Of a stretch of 64,000 bases of DNA, positions 57,876 through 63,171 are shown piece after piece. The number at the start of each line of letters is the position of its first letter. The stretch's first letter is position 1. The translations under genes and the position numbers were made by a program. The DNA is taken from IMG/VR virus record IMGVR_UViG_2721755710_000007, positions 1 to 64,000 of that record; one strand, given 5' to 3'. Below the pieces are notes generated by a model. That model ran no database searches and was not told where the DNA came from. It was given only the letters and a program-made list of their open reading frames with translations. Source of the DNA: a virus. Lineage: Duplodnaviria; Heunggongvirae; Uroviricota; Caudoviricetes.

Positions 57876-58160
57876 ATGCAGATGGAGCTAATAAGCCGCA
57901 AAGAGTTCGATAGCCGTGTAACCAGCGGTGAACTCGACAACTTGCAGGCTATCAAGGTGAAAGAAGGCTTTTGCCTCATTGGGAATCAGAGCGGAACAAA
58001 TCGCGTTTTTATGCTTCGCCGTACGGATTTGAAGCCATTTGTCTGGAAGAACGAAATTGGTCCCAGCTCATACGCTCAAACGAGGGGGTGCCACAACCTG
58101 GCCTTTTTCTACAAAGACGAGCTTTCTGTGGTTGATATTCAAGGGTTACAACATGTTTAA
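57876..58160 (+). CDS. hypothetical protein upstream of the rdgC homologue (94 aa from internal Met)
   Basis: ORF between the operator-like site and the rdgC-like gene. Confidence 0.35.
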
Positions 58161-59058
58161 GCACTGGAAAAACATTACTATTTATAAACTTTCTCGTGAG
58201 GCGGATCTGACCGACTTAGAAGATAAAAAGAAAATGATCCTTTTCACGCCATGCGGTAGTCAGGATATGGCCAAGTTCGGTTTTGTATCTCCATTTGGTG
58301 ATAATTCCGAAGTTATCGCTATGCATGGAAATGGTTTTATCCTTGTTGAAGCAAAGCGCGAAACAAAAATTCTTCCCCCGCCGGTTATCCAGCGAGCTAT
58401 TCAAGAAAAAATTGAAAAACTTGAGCAAGAACAAGCGTGTAAACTGAAGAAAACAGAGAAGGACTCCCTGAAAGACGAAGTTCTGCATTCTCTTCTGCCA
58501 CGGGCTTTTTCAAAGTTTTCTGTTATCCAGGCGATCTACGACGGTTCAACTAAACGTATCTATATCAATGCCAGCGCGCGGCAGGCAGAGGATATGCTCG
58601 CGCTTATGCGTAAGTCTCTGGGTTCTCTTCCTGTTGTTCCCCTGAGTGTTGAAAATCCCATTGAATTAACGCTGACCGACTGGGTACGTGATGGTAGTGC
58701 TCCACAGGGATTTCAAATGGGGGATGCGGCAGAACTTAAGGCAGTGCTTGAGGATGGCGGTATTGCCCGAGTGAAAAAGCAGGATTTGGGAAGCGATGAA
58801 ATTTCCACACACCTGGAAGCTGGCAAGCTCGTCACTAAGTTGGCACTCGACTGGCAGAACCGCATTAAATTTACACTGGACCATAACTTCAGCCTTACCA
58901 GCGTCAAATTTGCGGATGAATTGCTTGAGCAGAACTCTGATATTGATAGTGAAGATGTAGCGCAGCGACTGGACGCAGATTTCTTCCTGTTGACCAGTGA
59001 AATTTCGTGCCTGGTTGATGCTCTGGTAAATGCCCTTGGTGGAGAGGCTAAGCAGTGA
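58153..59058 (+). CDS. hrdC: RdgC-family recombination-associated protein (302 aa)
   Basis: Strong resemblance to E. coli RdgC ([11 protein letters not shown]...[23 protein letters not shown]...SLPVVPL); start at the Met at 58153. Confidence 0.85.
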
Positions 59059-62000
59059 AAGAGCTGTGCTATGGATCTGTTTGCAGTGGAATTGAAGCCG
59101 CGAGTATTGCCTGGGAACCGTTGGGTATGCGTCCGGTTTGGTTTGCTGAAATCGAGCCTTTTCCATCGGCCGTTCTTGCGCTCCGCTGGCCCCATGTCGC
59201 CAACCTTGGCGACATGACAAAACTTGCCAAAAAAGTCTAGGCTGGGGAAATCGAATCCCCTGACGTGCTCGTCGGGGGAACACCATGTTTTACCGCGGGG
59301 CATATGGTTCTTTGTAAAAATGGTTATAAACCAATAGAAGATATTTGCCCTGGCGATTACGTAGTCAGTCATCTCGGGCGGTTACAACAAGTAAAAAGAG
59401 TTGGTTCAAAAATAGCTAATACGGGGTTACTTAATGCCGTTGGGCAGCCTTTAGGTATAAGAACAACCAATGACCATCCCTTCCTGGCGGTTCGGTGGAA
59501 AGCCCAAAACACCCGGAAAAATGGCACATATTTTAAGAGAGAGTTGTTGTCTGAACCGGAATGGCGAGCAGCATGTGATATGCCGGGATATCAATGGTGC
59601 GCTCTAACTAATTTCAATATTGCATCTCCAGATATTTGTTCTCGGTTCTTGTCTGAAGAACAGGCTATGTATCTTGCGGGCGCTTATGTTGGCGATGGAT
59701 ATATTAGGAGATGGAGAGGTAAATCTAAGAAGGCGGTTGTTTTTGGCATAAATTGCCAGAAATTGAGAAAGTTTCATTGCCGCATACCAGAAAACATATT
59801 TTCCGTGGCAAGCGAAATCCGAGGGAGCATCAAAGTAACCTTGAATGATACGTGTTATGCCAATTGGCTTAATGAACATTTTGGCGAGTTAAGCCATGCT
59901 AAGCGTATCCCTGCATGGGTGATGTCGCATCCATTGCGTCATGTGTTTTTACAAGGCTATCTTGATACTGATGGGACACCAAGTGGTAAAGCGGGATTTA
60001 GAATTAATAGTGTTAGTCCTGCGCTTGCTTGGGGCGTTGCGGGGTTGTCACAGACTTGTGGTTATGTTTCTTCGGTCAGCTTTATTGAAGTTGAGCCCAA
60101 AAAAGTGATCGAGGATCGCGTGGTAAATCAACGGAATTATTATCAGGTAACAATCTGCCCGCAGAAATTGTCACGTAAATCAAGATTGGCTCATGGAATG
60201 CTTTTACGAACAGTCAAAGAGTTTAAATCGGTAGGCCTAGATACTGTATACAACATAGAAGTCGAAGGTGATCATTCCTATATCCTCAATGGTGCGGTGG
60301 TCCATAACTGTCAGGCATTCAGTATCGCGGGATTACGTGGTGGGCTTGATGATGAGCGTGGCGCGCTAACTTTAAAGTATGTGGAGCTTGCAAATGCAAT
60401 TGACGACAAACGGGCTGAGTCATTTCTCAAACCAGCCGTTATCGTCTGGGAAAATGTCCCAGGAGTCTTGTCATCGGCAGATAACGCCTTCGGATGTTTC
60501 CTTGCCGGATTGGCTGGAGAAGATGCGCCATTTGAACCAGGTGATCGACCTGAATCAGGAAAAAGTAACGCGTTCTGGCGGTGGGATGGCAAAACCGGTT
60601 GCCATGCTCCAAAGTGGCCGCAGTGTGGTTGTATTTATGGGCCGCAGCGAAAGGTGGCCTGGAGAATCCTTGATGCCCAATACTTCGGAGTGGCACAACG
60701 ACGCCGACGCGTGTTTGTTGTCGCAAGTGCTCGAACAGACCTCGATCCCGCAACGGTACTTTTTGAGTTCGAAGGCGTGCGCCGGAATATTGCGCCGAGC
60801 CGAAAAAAGAAGGAAATCGCTTCCGCCATTACTGCAAATGGCGCTGCAATCAGTGGCGAAAGCCTAAATCCATGCCTACACGCTGGCATGTCCCCCGGTA
60901 TGAAATCGACGAAAGCCGTAAACGGTTTCAGGATGGCGGCATTTGGGGAATATATTGACGATGAAACCGCATCGACAGTAAAGGCAAGAGACTTTAAAGA
61001 TGCCACTGACCTTGCTGTTTTTAGCAGCACAGGAGCAGGTTTTTGGTCAGAAGGGCATGGTACATTGCGGGCTCGTGAGCAAGAAAGCCATGAGCATCTT
61101 GTTACATTGGCTTTTCCTGAGCGTATGAGCGGTACACAACATGCTGCAACTAAGAATACTTCACCATCTCTAATGGCTAAAAATCCAACAGCTGTTTGCT
61201 ATGAAGTAAGAAACGCAGAAGTAGCTGTCCGCCGTCTTACCCCTGTCGAATGTGAAAGGCTGCAAGGTTTTCCTGATGGGCATACGTTGATCCCGACGGA
61301 AAAGCGTAAAAAAGTTAATTCAGATGAACTGGCATATCTTCGCAATCACTATCCAGATTTAAGCGAAGAAGAGGCCGCGATGCTTGCAGCTGACGGACCG
61401 CGTTACAAAGCGATCGGCAATAGTATGGCAATACCAGTAATGCGCTGGATTGGCGATCGGATTACTAAGGCCGTATGTCGGCAGAAAGAAGGAAGTGAAA
61501 CAAAAGAGCGAAAAGTTAAACCAGCGGCAGAATTCGAACGGTCCATATTCAAATGGGCTGGTGGAAAATTTGGTGTTCTGGAACAAATCTTTCGCTATTT
61601 GCCAGAAGGGAAGCGCCTGATTGAACCTTTCGTCGGTGGTGGAGCTGTCTTCATGAATGCCGGATACCAGGAAAATCTGCTAAATGATGTGAATGCTGAC
61701 CTGATTAACTTTTACAAGACTCTGCAACGCGAGGCGCATTCACTTATCACTCTGGCTCATCGTTTCTTCTTGGACTACAACACCCAGGAGGGATTCCTGG
61801 CAGTACGGAATGCGTTTAACAAACAAGTCTATGATGATTTACATCGCGCAGCGGCGTTTTTGTTCCTGAACCGACATTGTTTTAACGGATTGACGCGTTA
61901 CAACCAGGCCGGTGAGTTCAATGTCGGTTATGGGAAGTATAAAACTCCGTATTTCCCATTACAGGAGATGGAAGCCTTCCTCGGTGCGGAAGGTCGTTCT

Positions 62001-62342
62001 GAGTTTGTATGTGGTGATTTTGCTGCGGTGATTGAAGCTGCCGGAGAAGGAGATGTCATTTTTTGCGATCCGCCATATGAACCGCTTCCAAATACAGAGG
62101 GATTCACGAACTATTCCGGTCATGACTTTAAGTTTGAAGAGCAACAACGCCTGGTGTCTCTGTTGACGGATGCTCATCGCCGAGGTGCAAAGGTTCTCAT
62201 TACTAACAGTGGCGCGCCAAACATCAGAGAGCTTTATCATGACAATGGTTTCAGAGTGGAACCTCTTTTTGCCAGACGTTCTGTGTCTTGTAAGGGGGAC
62301 ACTCGAGGTGTTGCTCATGACGTTTTAGGTATATTGCTCTAA
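59055..62342 (+). CDS. dmt: two-domain DNA methyltransferase Dmt (C5-cytosine N-terminal, Dam-like C-terminal), interrupted by an intein and an in-frame TAG
   Basis: C5 motif I ([10 protein letters not shown]), split PCQ motif (GGTPC / QAFSIAG), [15 protein letters not shown]; Dam motifs (KWAGGK, DPPY); GTG start overlapping the upstream stop. Confidence 0.75.
59286..60308 (+). other. intein with LAGLIDADG homing-endonuclease domain (341 aa) in dmt
   Basis: Starts [13 protein letters not shown] (block A), TNDHPF (block B), [11 protein letters not shown] and [11 protein letters not shown] (LAGLIDADG), ends ...[10 protein letters not shown], followed by extein Cys of PCQ. Confidence 0.75.
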
Positions 62343-62349: not shown

Positions 62350-62526
62350 ATTAGTGTAATATCGCCTCAATGAATCGTGATTTATAGAGCGATTTAGCTG
62401 TTAGCCGCGACAGGCGCGGCGGCAAGTATGGCGGGGTAGTGACTCCTTCCCCATCATGACGCCGAGTTGCCAGGTTGACCATACGCCTAAGTGGCAACAC
62501 CGAAGTGCGTTACGAGCTTCCAGTTT

Positions 62527-62551
62527 GCCCATCTTCGGGTGGGCGTTTTTT
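62527..62551 (+). terminator. rho-independent terminator
   Basis: gcccatc-ttcg-ggtgggc hairpin followed by a T6 run. Confidence 0.6.
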
Positions 62552-63016: not shown

Positions 63017-63089
63017 TGATGGTGTAGCTCAGCGGTTAGAGCGGTTGACTGTTAATCAACGGGTCGATGGTTCAAATCCATCCACCATC
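63017..63089 (+). tRNA. tRNA-Asn (anticodon GTT)
   Basis: Cloverleaf folded by hand: acceptor GATGGTG/CACCATC, anticodon loop CTGTTAA, T-arm GATGG-TTCAAAT-CCATC, then CCA. Confidence 0.85.
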
Positions 63090-63094
63090 GCCAA

Positions 63095-63167
63095 TGCCGG
63101 TTTAGCTCAGTTGGTAGAGCGCCTGCTTTGTAAGCAGGATGTCAGCGGTTCGAGTCCGTTAATCGGC
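63095..63167 (+). tRNA. tRNA-Thr (anticodon TGT)
   Basis: Acceptor GCCGGTT/AATCGGC, anticodon stem-loop CCTGC-TTTGTAA-GCAGG, T-loop TTCGAGT, then CCA. Confidence 0.85.
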
Positions 63168-63171
63168 ACCA

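What the first reader, a model, noticed from the sequence alone, without database searches (positions are those of the whole stretch)
59286..60308. Intein with LAGLIDADG homing endonuclease inserted at the catalytic cysteine of the dmt C5-methyltransferase
The conserved C5-methyltransferase PCQ motif is split: GGTP, then a 341-codon in-frame insertion beginning with Cys and ending with His-Asn, then CQAFSIAG. The insertion has Hint blocks A, B and G and two LAGLIDADG motifs, so it reads as a full-length intein whose +1 nucleophile is the methyltransferase catalytic Cys. Without the insertion the gene is about 746 codons, close to the 754 aa I recall for P1 Dmt, so this looks like a recent gain. 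I am not aware of an intein described in this gene, and inteins are rare in enterobacterial elements.
Basis: partly seen in the sequence, partly recalled or inferred. Interest (0 to 1): 0.85.

Follow-up and report, generated by a model that had tools for sequence, protein, structure and literature searches.

The report
Homing intein splitting P1 Dmt methyltransferase
The P1-type dmt gene of this E. coli phage-plasmid really does carry a complete self-splicing intein with a homing endonuclease at the cytosine methyltransferase's catalytic cysteine, but the intein sits in about 30% of P1-like elements, and in this copy the gene also has an upstream stop codon.

Summary
Window 59286-60308 is a 341-codon in-frame insertion (Cys1...His-Asn, then Cys+1) that splits the GTP|CQAFS motif IV of the C5-methyltransferase half of P1 dmt (59055-62342). 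Removing it gives a 754-aa protein collinear with reference P1 Dmt.

Sequence profiles, conserved catalytic residues and a confident predicted structure (pLDDT 97) all identify a class-1 intein with a LAGLIDADG endonuclease. The model's best matches are PI-SceI and the VMA inteins.

- **Not rare or private.** The window is E. coli D5 plasmid A (NZ_CP010146). The same intein, at least 99% identical, is in 152 of 5426 complete E. coli genomes, in 133 PLSDB plasmids, and in phage RCS47. About 30% of P1-like dmt alleles are occupied.
- **Part of a large family.** Its closest relatives, about 130 of the 145 full-length hits examined, sit at the same PCQ site of C5 methyltransferases.
- **A missed stop codon.** Codon 62 of dmt is TAG here (59238-59240). 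It is TTG or CTG in 16 of the 17 other alleles compared and TAG only in p22Q34-2. This copy should therefore not make the full precursor.

Haplotypes around the site look like co-conversion from homing. I found no paper describing this intein. Verdict: a new member of a known kind, of moderate interest.

The parts
59055..62342 (+). Complete dmt gene of a P1-like phage-plasmid: C5-cytosine methyltransferase domain, intein, and C-terminal Dam-type N6-adenine methyltransferase domain. It has a GTG start that overlaps the hrdC stop. It would encode 1095 codons but for the TAG at codon 62.
   Evidence: It is collinear with the annotated dmt of RCS47, Ro157c2YLVW, LR883966 and AP022163 (3288 nt each). 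Pfam DNA_methylase and MethyltransfD12 both match.
59055..59285 (+). N-extein of 77 codons. It carries C5-methyltransferase motif I (CSGIEAA) through the Pro of motif IV (GGTP).
   Evidence: Translation. After in-silico splicing, Pfam DNA_methylase covers residues 8-135 without a break across the junction, at 105.5 bits.
59238..59240 (+). In-frame amber codon (TAG) at dmt codon 62, upstream of the intein. It is TTG in the intein-bearing relatives and TTG or CTG in the empty alleles compared. The same TAG occurs in plasmid p22Q34-2.
   Evidence: RefSeq therefore starts the CDS at 59265 in NZ_CP010146 and NZ_ON934557. No suppressor tRNA is present in the window.
59265..59267 (+). GTG used by RefSeq/PGAP as the start of the truncated 1025-aa CDS. 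It lies 7 codons before intein Cys1 and has no convincing Shine-Dalgarno sequence at a normal spacing.
   Evidence: The reading of the upstream sequence GGGGAAATCGAATCCCCTGAC is my own.
59286..60308 (+). Intein of 341 codons: class-1 Hint splicing domain with an inserted LAGLIDADG homing endonuclease domain.
   Evidence: Pfam and NCBIfam hits. AF2 model pLDDT 97.4; Foldseek best matches are PI-SceI at E 6.6e-17, then the TliVMA and PhoVMA inteins, PI-PfuI and PI-PkoII. The segment is absent from P1, P7, SJ46 and 5 other empty alleles.
59286..59288 (+). Cys1, the block A nucleophile for the N-S acyl shift.
   Evidence: Nearly invariant in the 85-sequence alignment A1.
59466..59477 (+). Block B TxxH (T61-N-D-H64).
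   Evidence: T61 and H64 are nearly invariant in A1. Positions were computed.
59643..60161 (+). LAGLIDADG endonuclease domain, approximately residues 120-292 (boundaries estimated).
   Evidence: The alpha/beta block in the AF2 secondary structure spans helices 124-257 and the strands that follow. Foldseek matches to I-DmoI and I-SceI cover about 180 columns. Pfam LAGLIDADG_3 matches residues 221-284.
59673..59699 (+). LAGLIDADG motif 1 (LAGAYVGDG, residues 130-138), with catalytic Asp137.
   Evidence: G136, D137 and G138 are nearly invariant. Positions.
59946..59975 (+). LAGLIDADG motif 2 ([10 protein letters not shown], residues 221-230), with catalytic Asp229.
   Evidence: D229 and G230 are nearly invariant, and K206 is also conserved.
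60246..60308 (+). Blocks F and G ([21 protein letters not shown]), with D329, His340 and Asn341.
   Evidence: NCBIfam intein_Cterm hit. Aligns to the C-terminus of the Spl DnaX mini-intein. V326 and N341 are invariant; D329 and H340 are nearly invariant.
60309..60311 (+). Cys+1, which is both the splicing nucleophile and the catalytic Cys of C5-methyltransferase motif IV (PCQ).
   Evidence: Junction read. The C and Q after the intein are nearly invariant across homologues.
60309..62342 (+). C-extein: the rest of the C5-methyltransferase domain (ENV, QRRR, target-recognition region, GNS motifs), then the Dam-type domain (about 61554-62252).
   Evidence: Pfam DNA_methylase and MethyltransfD12 at 191.5 bits; NCBIfam dam at 246 bits.
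58153..59058 (+). hrdC (rdgC homologue), the gene immediately upstream in the same operon. Its stop overlaps the dmt start.
   Evidence: Annotation of NZ_CP010146 and P1.

Best explanation
Window 59286-60308 is a canonical class-1 intein. It is a Hint splicing domain interrupted by a single-chain LAGLIDADG homing endonuclease, inserted in the C5-cytosine methyltransferase half of the bifunctional Dmt of a P1-like phage-plasmid (E. coli D5 plasmid A).

**Splicing (inferred).** In an intact allele the 1095-aa precursor would splice itself. Cys1 forms a thioester with Pro-1. Cys+1 attacks that thioester. Asn341 then cyclises, aided by His340 and Asp329, and releases the intein of about 39 kDa. 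This rebuilds GTP-CQAFS, so that Cys+1 becomes the catalytic nucleophile of motif IV in a 754-aa Dmt.

**Homing (inferred).** The free intein would cut empty dmt alleles (...GGTACGCCT|TGTCAGGC...). Such alleles meet an occupied one when two P1-like elements share a cell. Repair from the occupied allele would copy in the intein together with about 100 bp of flanking extein. This would explain the roughly 30% occupancy, the near-identity of all copies, and the flank haplotype block.

**This copy (shown plus inferred).** A TTG-to-TAG change at codon 62 should stop translation before the intein. Here the C5 methyltransferase function is probably lost. The intein is then a sequence-intact passenger, made at most by low-level read-through or reinitiation.

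**What is shown and what is inferred.** Shown: the anatomy, the fold prediction, the distribution, the haplotype pattern and the stop codon. Inferred: splicing, cleavage and homing activity.
For: - **Precise in-frame insertion.** Empty alleles are collinear, and the in-silico spliced product is 754 aa, the same as P1 Dmt. The Pfam DNA_methylase match becomes continuous across the junction after in-silico splicing, at 105.5 bits against 78.4 bits unspliced.
- **Profile hits.** Hint_2, LAGLIDADG_3 and intein_Cterm all pass their cut-offs.
- **Residues intact and conserved in 85 homologues.** C1, T61/H64, D137, K206, D229, D329, H340, N341 and C+1.
- **Predicted fold.** AF2 pLDDT 97.4 and pTM 0.93. 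Foldseek best matches are PI-SceI, the Tli/Pho VMA inteins, PI-PfuI and PI-PkoII, followed by I-DmoI and I-SceI.
- **Family.** About 130 of the 145 full-length hits examined are flanked by GxxP|CF...HN|CQxxS. Relatives also occur in C5 methyltransferases of Mannheimia, Propionibacterium, Lactobacillus and jumbo coliphages.
- **Distribution.** In PLSDB, 133 plasmids are occupied and 340 are empty. In complete E. coli genomes, 152 are occupied and 324 are empty.
- **Mobility signature.** Nucleotide diversity in the intein is 0.0047, and 0 in the first 100 nt downstream. Divergence between occupied and empty alleles peaks next to the site (0.0715 in the 100 nt upstream, 0.034 in the 100 nt downstream). 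It falls to 0.013-0.020 more than 300 nt upstream. The intein is linked to two different target-recognition-region alleles, and both of these also occur empty.
- **Stop codon.** TAG at codon 62 in the window and in p22Q34-2 only. No suppressor tRNA is present.
Against: - No experiment shows splicing or cleavage.
- Pfam Intein_splicing scores below its cut-off (22.8 against 35.8 bits), and Hint_2 passes only narrowly.
- Pro at -1 is known, from my own knowledge of engineered inteins, to disfavour the first splicing step. However, -1 Pro is nearly invariant in this whole family.
- The haplotype pattern comes from only 10 occupied and 8 empty alleles. Common descent plus ordinary homologous recombination could produce it without endonuclease activity.
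- Polymorphism inside the intein is 6 synonymous to 7 non-synonymous codons, too few to show purifying selection.
- For this copy, amber read-through, a suppressor host, or reinitiation at GTG 59265 cannot be excluded.
Confidence: 0.88

Rival explanations
1. The insertion is a former intein that no longer splices. It would be a fixed Hint plus endonuclease domain that permanently inactivates, or re-purposes, the C5 methyltransferase half of Dmt, while the C-terminal Dam domain works on its own.
For: - The C5 activity of P1 Dmt is only 'perhaps' present according to the P1 annotation.
- The C5 half is damaged in other ways in some alleles: TAG here, and G74W next to PCQ in reference P1.
- Polymorphism in the intein is not clearly under purifying selection, at 6 synonymous to 7 non-synonymous codons.
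- Pro at -1 is a poor context for many inteins (own knowledge).
Against: - Every residue needed for splicing and for cleavage is intact in all 10 copies compared, and is conserved across 85 homologues down to about 30% identity.
- The insertion is exact to the codon at a nucleophilic Cys.
- All 153 copies in complete E. coli genomes are full-length and at least 99% identical, and the 10 copies I translated have no stops.
- Decay would be expected if the element were inert.
Confidence: 0.08
2. The intein splices but its endonuclease is inactive. Its spread among P1-like elements would then reflect vertical descent plus general homologous recombination between co-resident phage-plasmids, not homing.
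For: - P1-like elements recombine extensively, and the target-recognition-region alleles and flanking SNPs are shuffled.
- Many natural intein endonucleases are inactive (own knowledge; compare PMC8966425, title and abstract seen).
- The haplotype sample is small.
Against: - Both LAGLIDADG motifs keep their acidic residues and Lys206.
- Divergence between occupied and empty alleles is concentrated within about 100 nt of the site, and diversity is zero just downstream. This is the expected trace of a co-conversion tract.
- The intein is far less diverse (0.5%) than the backbone it sits in.
Confidence: 0.25
3. The segment is not an intein. It would instead be a free-standing homing endonuclease gene, a group I intron, a bacterial intein-like (BIL) domain, or an assembly artefact.
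For: Weak only. A BIL domain (2lwy) appears at E 0.62 in the PDB sequence search.
Against: - The segment is in frame with both exteins and has no stops or start signals of its own.
- It has a canonical C...HN|C architecture at a conserved catalytic site, unlike BIL domains.
- The predicted fold matches whole inteins.
- Near-identical sequence (≥95% identity; nearly all ≥99%) is present in about 290 independent public records.
Confidence: 0.01

Closest known systems
PI-SceI (Sce VMA1 intein) and the archaeal VMA, PI-PfuI and PI-PkoII inteins
   Same: Same two-part architecture: a Hint splicing domain with a nested single-chain LAGLIDADG endonuclease. Same class-1 chemistry (Cys1, TxxH, His-Asn, Cys+1). 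These are the best structural matches, at E 6.6e-17 to 5e-10.
   Different: Only 12-16% sequence identity. The host protein is different (ATPase, ribonucleotide reductase or polymerase, rather than a DNA methyltransferase). The Dmt intein is compact at 341 aa, and its TM-scores of 0.5-0.6 point to a different domain arrangement or missing DNA-recognition extras.
Mycobacteriophage DNMT-1/2 inteins (Kelley et al. 2016, PMC5050341) and the actinophage methylase intein (Gosselin et al. 2023, PMC9957025)
   Same: They are LAGLIDADG inteins in orphan phage DNA methylases. The Pacc40 gp60 intein is a detectable homologue, at 26.6% identity over the full length.
   Different: Those hosts are N6/N4-type methylases (PF01555). 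The insertion site there is ...MHV|C...KN|CPLQFD, not the PCQ motif. The host bacteria are actinobacteria, not Enterobacteriaceae.
C-5 DNA methylase inteins listed for actinobacteriophages (bioRxiv 10.1101/2025.01.02.630785)
   Same: Same class of host protein (IPR001525 C-5 methylase). Propionibacterium phage B22 gp50 carries a 30%-identical intein at the same GSP|C...HN|CQ site.
   Different: That work is a survey-level listing for actinophages. It says nothing about P1, E. coli or phage-plasmids. The Dmt host protein is a bifunctional C5 plus Dam fusion.
Reference P1 Dmt (Lobocka et al. 2004 annotation, NC_005856 gp069)
   Same: Same gene, same operon (uhr-hrdC-dmt), 754 aa. It is 97.7% identical to the in-silico spliced product, with 17 differences.
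   Different: The reference has an empty site. It also has Trp instead of Gly two residues before the PCQ proline (VWGTPCQ).

Membership tests
Intein (class 1) | In-frame insertion in a conserved host protein whose orthologues lack it, with the exteins collinear after removal | tested here: met
   P1, P7, SJ46 and 5 plasmid alleles are empty at exactly this codon. The spliced product is 754 aa, the same as P1 Dmt.
Intein (class 1) | Cys/Ser at position 1, block B TxxH, C-terminal His-Asn, and Cys/Ser/Thr at +1 | tested here: met
   C1, T61-N-D-H64, H340-N341 and C+1 are present and nearly invariant in 85 homologues.
Intein (class 1) | Match to curated intein/Hint profiles | tested here: met
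   Hint_2 scores 29.6 bits (cut-off 28.4) and intein_Cterm TIGR01443 scores 25.9 bits (cut-off 15.6). Intein_splicing PF14890 falls below its cut-off, at 22.8 against 35.8 bits.
Intein (class 1) | Hint fold | tested here: met
   AF2 model pLDDT 97.4. Foldseek matches whole inteins (PI-SceI at E 6.6e-17) and mini-inteins (GyrA, DnaB). This is a prediction, not a solved structure.
Intein (class 1) | Autocatalytic protein splicing | not testable with these tools
   This needs expression of an allele without the TAG, followed by a western blot or mass spectrometry.
LAGLIDADG homing endonuclease (single-chain, two-motif) | Two LAGLIDADG motifs with a conserved acidic residue each, and the alpha-beta-beta-alpha-beta-beta-alpha fold | tested here: met
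   LAGAYVGDG (D137) and [10 protein letters not shown] (D229). Pfam LAGLIDADG_3 scores 35.1 bits (cut-off 22.5). Foldseek matches I-DmoI and I-SceI at E about 5e-5.
LAGLIDADG homing endonuclease (single-chain, two-motif) | Site-specific cleavage of the empty allele, and homing | tested here: inconclusive
   The evidence is indirect: about 30% occupancy, intein diversity of 0.5%, a flank haplotype block that decays within about 100-300 nt, and linkage to two target-recognition-region alleles. Enzymatic activity is not testable here.
C5 DNA cytosine methyltransferase (PF00145), as host protein | Motifs I (SAM binding), IV (PCQ), VI (ENV), VIII (QRR) and X (GNS) in order | tested here: met
   CSGIEAA, GTP|CQ, WENVPG, QRRRRVF and [10 protein letters not shown] were read in the translation. 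Pfam scores 105.5 bits on the spliced sequence. In this window the ORF is broken by TAG between motifs I and IV.
Bacterial intein-like (BIL) domain | A Hint domain in variable, non-conserved protein regions, without a conserved +1 nucleophile and without an endonuclease | tested here: not met
   The insertion lies at an invariant catalytic motif, has a conserved C+1, and contains an endonuclease domain.

The most novel reading that the evidence does not exclude
This may be an actively homing intein now sweeping through the P1-like phage-plasmids of E. coli, Salmonella and Shigella. That would make it a natural intein system native to E. coli. Occupied alleles, empty alleles and one possible precise-loss or ancestral allele (S. 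Typhi ph681355) all exist in a genetically tractable phage. Splicing at a Cys1/Cys+1 junction with a -1 Pro might also gate C5 methylation after translation, for example by redox state. That would couple a phage anti-restriction activity to intein chemistry.
Probability: 0.3. Interest if true: 0.65.

Novelty: new member of a known kind. Interest (0 to 1): 0.45.

Why it matters
- **A natural system in E. coli.** E. coli is the standard host for intein biochemistry and is generally treated as free of native inteins (my own knowledge). Yet about 3% of complete E. coli genomes carry this one on P1-like plasmids, annotated only as a 'Dam family methyltransferase'. It offers a natural polymorphism for studying homing, co-conversion and intein loss in the best-developed phage genetics system.
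- **A common but little-noted insertion site.** The catalytic Cys of C5 methyltransferases is shown to be a widely used intein site.
- **An annotation problem.** Intein-bearing dmt genes are named without any mention of the intein. In this plasmid a nonsense codon is hidden by a shifted start.
- **A possible effect on methylation phenotypes.** Differences in m5C methylation between P1-like elements may depend on intein occupancy, on the TAG, and on the target-recognition-region allele.

Tried and rejected
- **Literature.** Ten full-text searches combined intein with Dmt, P1, P1-like, RCS47, phage-plasmid, cytosine methyltransferase, DNA methylase, Mannheimia and Asteriusvirus. None found a description of this intein. 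The RCS47 paper is not held. The searches did turn up inteins in N6/N4 phage methylases and a listing of C-5 methylase as an actinophage intein host.
- **Suppressor tRNA.** I looked for one that could read the TAG. The window holds only tRNA-Asn(GTT) and tRNA-Thr(TGT).
- **Reinitiation at GTG 59265 (the RefSeq start).** The only Shine-Dalgarno-like run (GGGGA) lies about 17 nt upstream, so I treat this start as an artefact of choosing the longest ORF. Low-level reinitiation is not excluded.
- **Promoter scan.** No sigma-70-like site on the + strand inside the gene could express the intein separately.
- **GC content as evidence of foreign origin.** The intein is 43.0% GC, the exteins 49.1% and the window 46.3%. 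This is suggestive only.
- **Synonymous versus non-synonymous changes.** Only 13 polymorphic codons, which is too few to be informative.
- **PDB sequence search.** Weak on its own (best E 1.4e-3). The fold search was needed.
- **Locus L022.** Cut at the record origin, so not usable for the flank analysis.
Full report
**What is in the sequence.**
The + strand of window 57876-62342 carries the P1 operon uhr-hrdC-dmt. The window is identical to E. coli strain D5 plasmid A (NZ_CP010146.1). This is an IncY, P1-like phage-plasmid of 112,874 bp, and window position equals record position minus 5924.

dmt starts at GTG 59055, overlapping the hrdC stop, as it does in P1, RCS47 and other relatives. It ends at 62342. 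Its translation reads ...DVLVGGTP, then a 341-residue segment CFTAGH...NGAVVHN, then [12 protein letters not shown]....

**It is an insertion relative to the reference.**
Reference P1 Dmt (754 aa) reads ...[13 protein letters not shown]... without interruption. P7 (672 aa), SJ46 (807 aa) and five plasmid alleles are also empty at this codon.

Deleting 59286-60308 leaves 754 codons. These align residue for residue with P1 Dmt, with 17 differences. On the in-silico spliced sequence, the Pfam DNA_methylase match runs unbroken across the junction (residues 8-135) and scores 105.5 bits. The unspliced ORF scores 78.4 bits.

**It is an intein with a LAGLIDADG endonuclease.**
- Pfam Hint_2 (29.6 bits, cut-off 28.4) and LAGLIDADG_3 (35.1 bits, cut-off 22.5) pass their thresholds. 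Intein_splicing does not (22.8 against 35.8 bits).
- NCBIfam intein_Cterm passes (25.9 bits, cut-off 15.6). Weaker matches fall on the intein parts of intein-containing RNR, GyrA, DnaB and RFC models.
- In an alignment with 84 homologues that go down to about 30% identity, the near-invariant positions are exactly the functional ones. These are C1, T61 and H64 (block B), G136-D137-G138 and D229-G230 (the two LAGLIDADG motifs), K206, D329 (block F), H340, N341, and the following C and Q.
- An AlphaFold2 model built on that alignment has mean pLDDT 97.4 and pTM 0.93.
- Its best Foldseek matches in the PDB are whole endonuclease-containing inteins: PI-SceI (E 6.6e-17), the TliVMA and PhoVMA inteins, PI-PfuI and PI-PkoII. 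Next come the free LAGLIDADG enzymes I-DmoI and I-SceI, and then mini-inteins.
- The +1 Cys is the Cys of motif IV (PCQ), the catalytic nucleophile of C5 methyltransferases. That assignment rests on established knowledge of the family.

Codon 62 of dmt (59238-59240) is TAG in the window. It is TTG in RCS47, Ro157c2YLVW, OP279344, LR883966, AP022163 and the other occupied alleles, and TTG or CTG in the empty alleles compared. The same TAG occurs in plasmid p22Q34-2 (NZ_ON934557).

Because of it, RefSeq starts the CDS at GTG 59265, giving 1025 aa. The nearest relatives are annotated with the full 1095 aa. The window has no suppressor tRNA. There is also no plausible ribosome-binding site at normal spacing before 59265 (my reading).

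In this plasmid the full precursor should therefore not be made in a non-suppressor host. Any product reinitiated downstream would lack methyltransferase motif I. The C-terminal Dam domain could still be functional if it were expressed. That last point is an inference.

**It is not rare.**
- The 1023-nt intein is found at 95% identity or more in 133 PLSDB plasmids: Escherichia 118, Salmonella 14, Shigella 1. In 128 of them identity is at least 99%.
- It is also in phages RCS47 and vB_EcoM-Ro157c2YLVW, and in a record named 'P1 isolate del res del mod'.
- It is in 152 of 5426 complete E. coli genomes, always at 99% identity or more.
- An 800-nt probe made by joining the two flanks finds 340 contiguous (empty) and about 134 split (occupied) plasmid records.
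- The same probe finds 324 empty sites among 494 dmt-positive E. coli genomes.
- Occupancy is therefore about 28-32%.

**It belongs to a large family tied to this site.**
HMMER against 1.84 billion representative proteins gave 4482 hits at E<=1e-3 and 192 at E<=1e-30. Of the 145 best hits that cover the whole intein, about 130 are flanked by GxxP|CF...(V)HN|CQxxS. That is the same motif IV site of C5 methyltransferases, usually 70-90 residues from the N-terminus.

Annotated examples:
- Mannheimia phage vB_MhS_587AP2 (48% identity).
- Propionibacterium phage B22 gp50.
- Lactobacillus phage Nyseid.
- Asteriusvirus jumbo coliphages.

A mini-intein version without the endonuclease also exists at this site (P0019). 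More distant relatives (26-27% identity) are the known inteins in mycobacteriophage cluster F 'DNA methylase'. Those sit at a different site (MHV|C...KN|CPLQFD) in an N4/N6-type enzyme (PMC5050341).

**Signs of mobility.**
I compared 10 occupied and 8 empty alleles.
- Nucleotide diversity among occupied alleles is 0.0047 in the intein. It is 0.000 in the first 100 nt downstream and 0.011 in the 100 nt upstream.
- Divergence between occupied and empty alleles peaks next to the site, at 0.0715 upstream and 0.034 downstream. It falls to 0.013-0.020 more than 300 nt upstream.
- Fixed differences lie at 59182, 59238, 59264 and 59285. Most empty alleles also differ at -4 and -7, reading GGTACGCCT against GGAACACCA. 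All three changes at -1, -4 and -7 are synonymous.
- Further out, polymorphisms are shared between the two classes. RCS47, for example, carries 'empty-type' variants at 60434-60437.
- The intein occurs with both the P1-type and the P7-type target-recognition region. Both regions also occur without it, so all four combinations exist.

This is what co-conversion during homing would leave. With so few alleles, common descent plus ordinary recombination is not excluded. All 10 copies are open, with 6 synonymous and 7 non-synonymous polymorphic codons and no change at a catalytic residue. The intein is 43.0% GC against 49.1% for the exteins.

**Mechanism.**
- Shown: the anatomy, the conserved residues, the predicted fold, the distribution, the flank haplotypes and the stop codon.
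- Inferred from the established class-1 pathway: an N-S acyl shift at Pro-1/Cys1, trans-thioesterification to Cys+1, Asn341 cyclisation, and an S-N shift that rebuilds GTPCQAFS.
- Inferred from the LAGLIDADG family: cleavage of the empty dmt site when two P1-like elements share a cell, followed by repair from the occupied allele.
- A point of biochemical interest is the near-invariant Pro at -1. From my own knowledge, this is an unfavourable residue for many engineered inteins.

**Comparison with what is known, and novelty.**
Inteins in phage DNA methylases are documented (PMC5050341; PMC9957025). A 2025 preprint lists C-5 methylase among the actinophage intein hosts it calls previously reported. 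I found nothing on an intein in P1 Dmt, in P1-like phage-plasmids or in E. coli. The library does not cover subscription journals, and the RCS47 paper was not available.

Public annotations call the protein 'Dam family methyltransferase', 'DNA methyltransferase' or 'Hint domain-containing protein', and never an intein-containing protein. I therefore class it as a new member of a known kind: correctly spotted, real, common in public data and apparently undescribed.

It is of moderate interest, mainly as a natural intein and homing system in E. coli's own phage-plasmids. This particular copy sits in a gene with a nonsense mutation.

Noticed in passing
window 59238-59240: In-frame TAG at codon 62 of dmt. 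Relatives have TTG or CTG here. It is shared with plasmid p22Q34-2 (NZ_ON934557). RefSeq hides it by starting the CDS at GTG 59265.
   Followed up: yes
L004 (NC_005856 P1) dmt codon 74; window 59274-59276: Reference P1 Dmt has Trp where the 17 other alleles compared have Gly, two residues before the proline of the PCQ motif (VWGTPCQ against VGGTPCQ). This could bear on the never-demonstrated C5 activity of P1 Dmt.
   Followed up: no
window about 60900-61450; L003, L013, L014, L020: The target-recognition region of the C5 methyltransferase domain comes in at least three unrelated variants: P1-type, a shorter P7-type and a longer SJ46-type. This suggests different m5C specificities among P1-like elements. 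The intein occurs with the first two.
   Followed up: partly
L003 (OP279344.1, 'Escherichia phage P1 isolate del res del mod'): A phage record deposited as P1 carries the intein (99.7% amino-acid identity) together with a P7-type target-recognition region. This differs from both published P1 reference sequences. Its origin is unexplained.
   Followed up: no
L015 (CP083412.1, S. Typhi plasmid ph681355) around the empty site: This is an empty-site allele whose immediate flanks carry the haplotype otherwise typical of intein-bearing alleles (GGAACACC..., and downstream 60332-60414). It may be the ancestral target allele or a precise intein loss.
   Followed up: partly
L010 (Mannheimia phage vB_MhS_587AP2) 1264-3584: The homologous intein (48% identity) sits in a C5 methyltransferase gene that is broken right after the intein (…VVHN|CQSDKGG…*). 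The rest of the methyltransferase is in another frame and is followed by an HNH endonuclease gene. The cluster representative P0011 is seen on 578 contigs.
   Followed up: partly
window 63018-63171 and 62523-62545: tRNA-Asn(GTT) and tRNA-Thr(TGT) lie downstream of dmt, as in P1. Ro157c2YLVW has an extra tRNA-Tyr between them. A terminator-like hairpin follows dmt at 62523-62545.
   Followed up: no
E. coli genome hits: Five of the 153 intein copies in complete E. coli genomes lie on chromosomes rather than plasmids (for example NZ_CP015229 at 1.84 Mb). This implies integrated or mis-assembled P1-like elements.
   Followed up: no
L013 (P7) 2484-2502 within dmt: The P7 annotation predicts an internal late promoter (LPdam2) inside the gene, upstream of the Dam domain. 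If it is conserved, the Dam half could be expressed independently of the intein and of the TAG.
   Followed up: no
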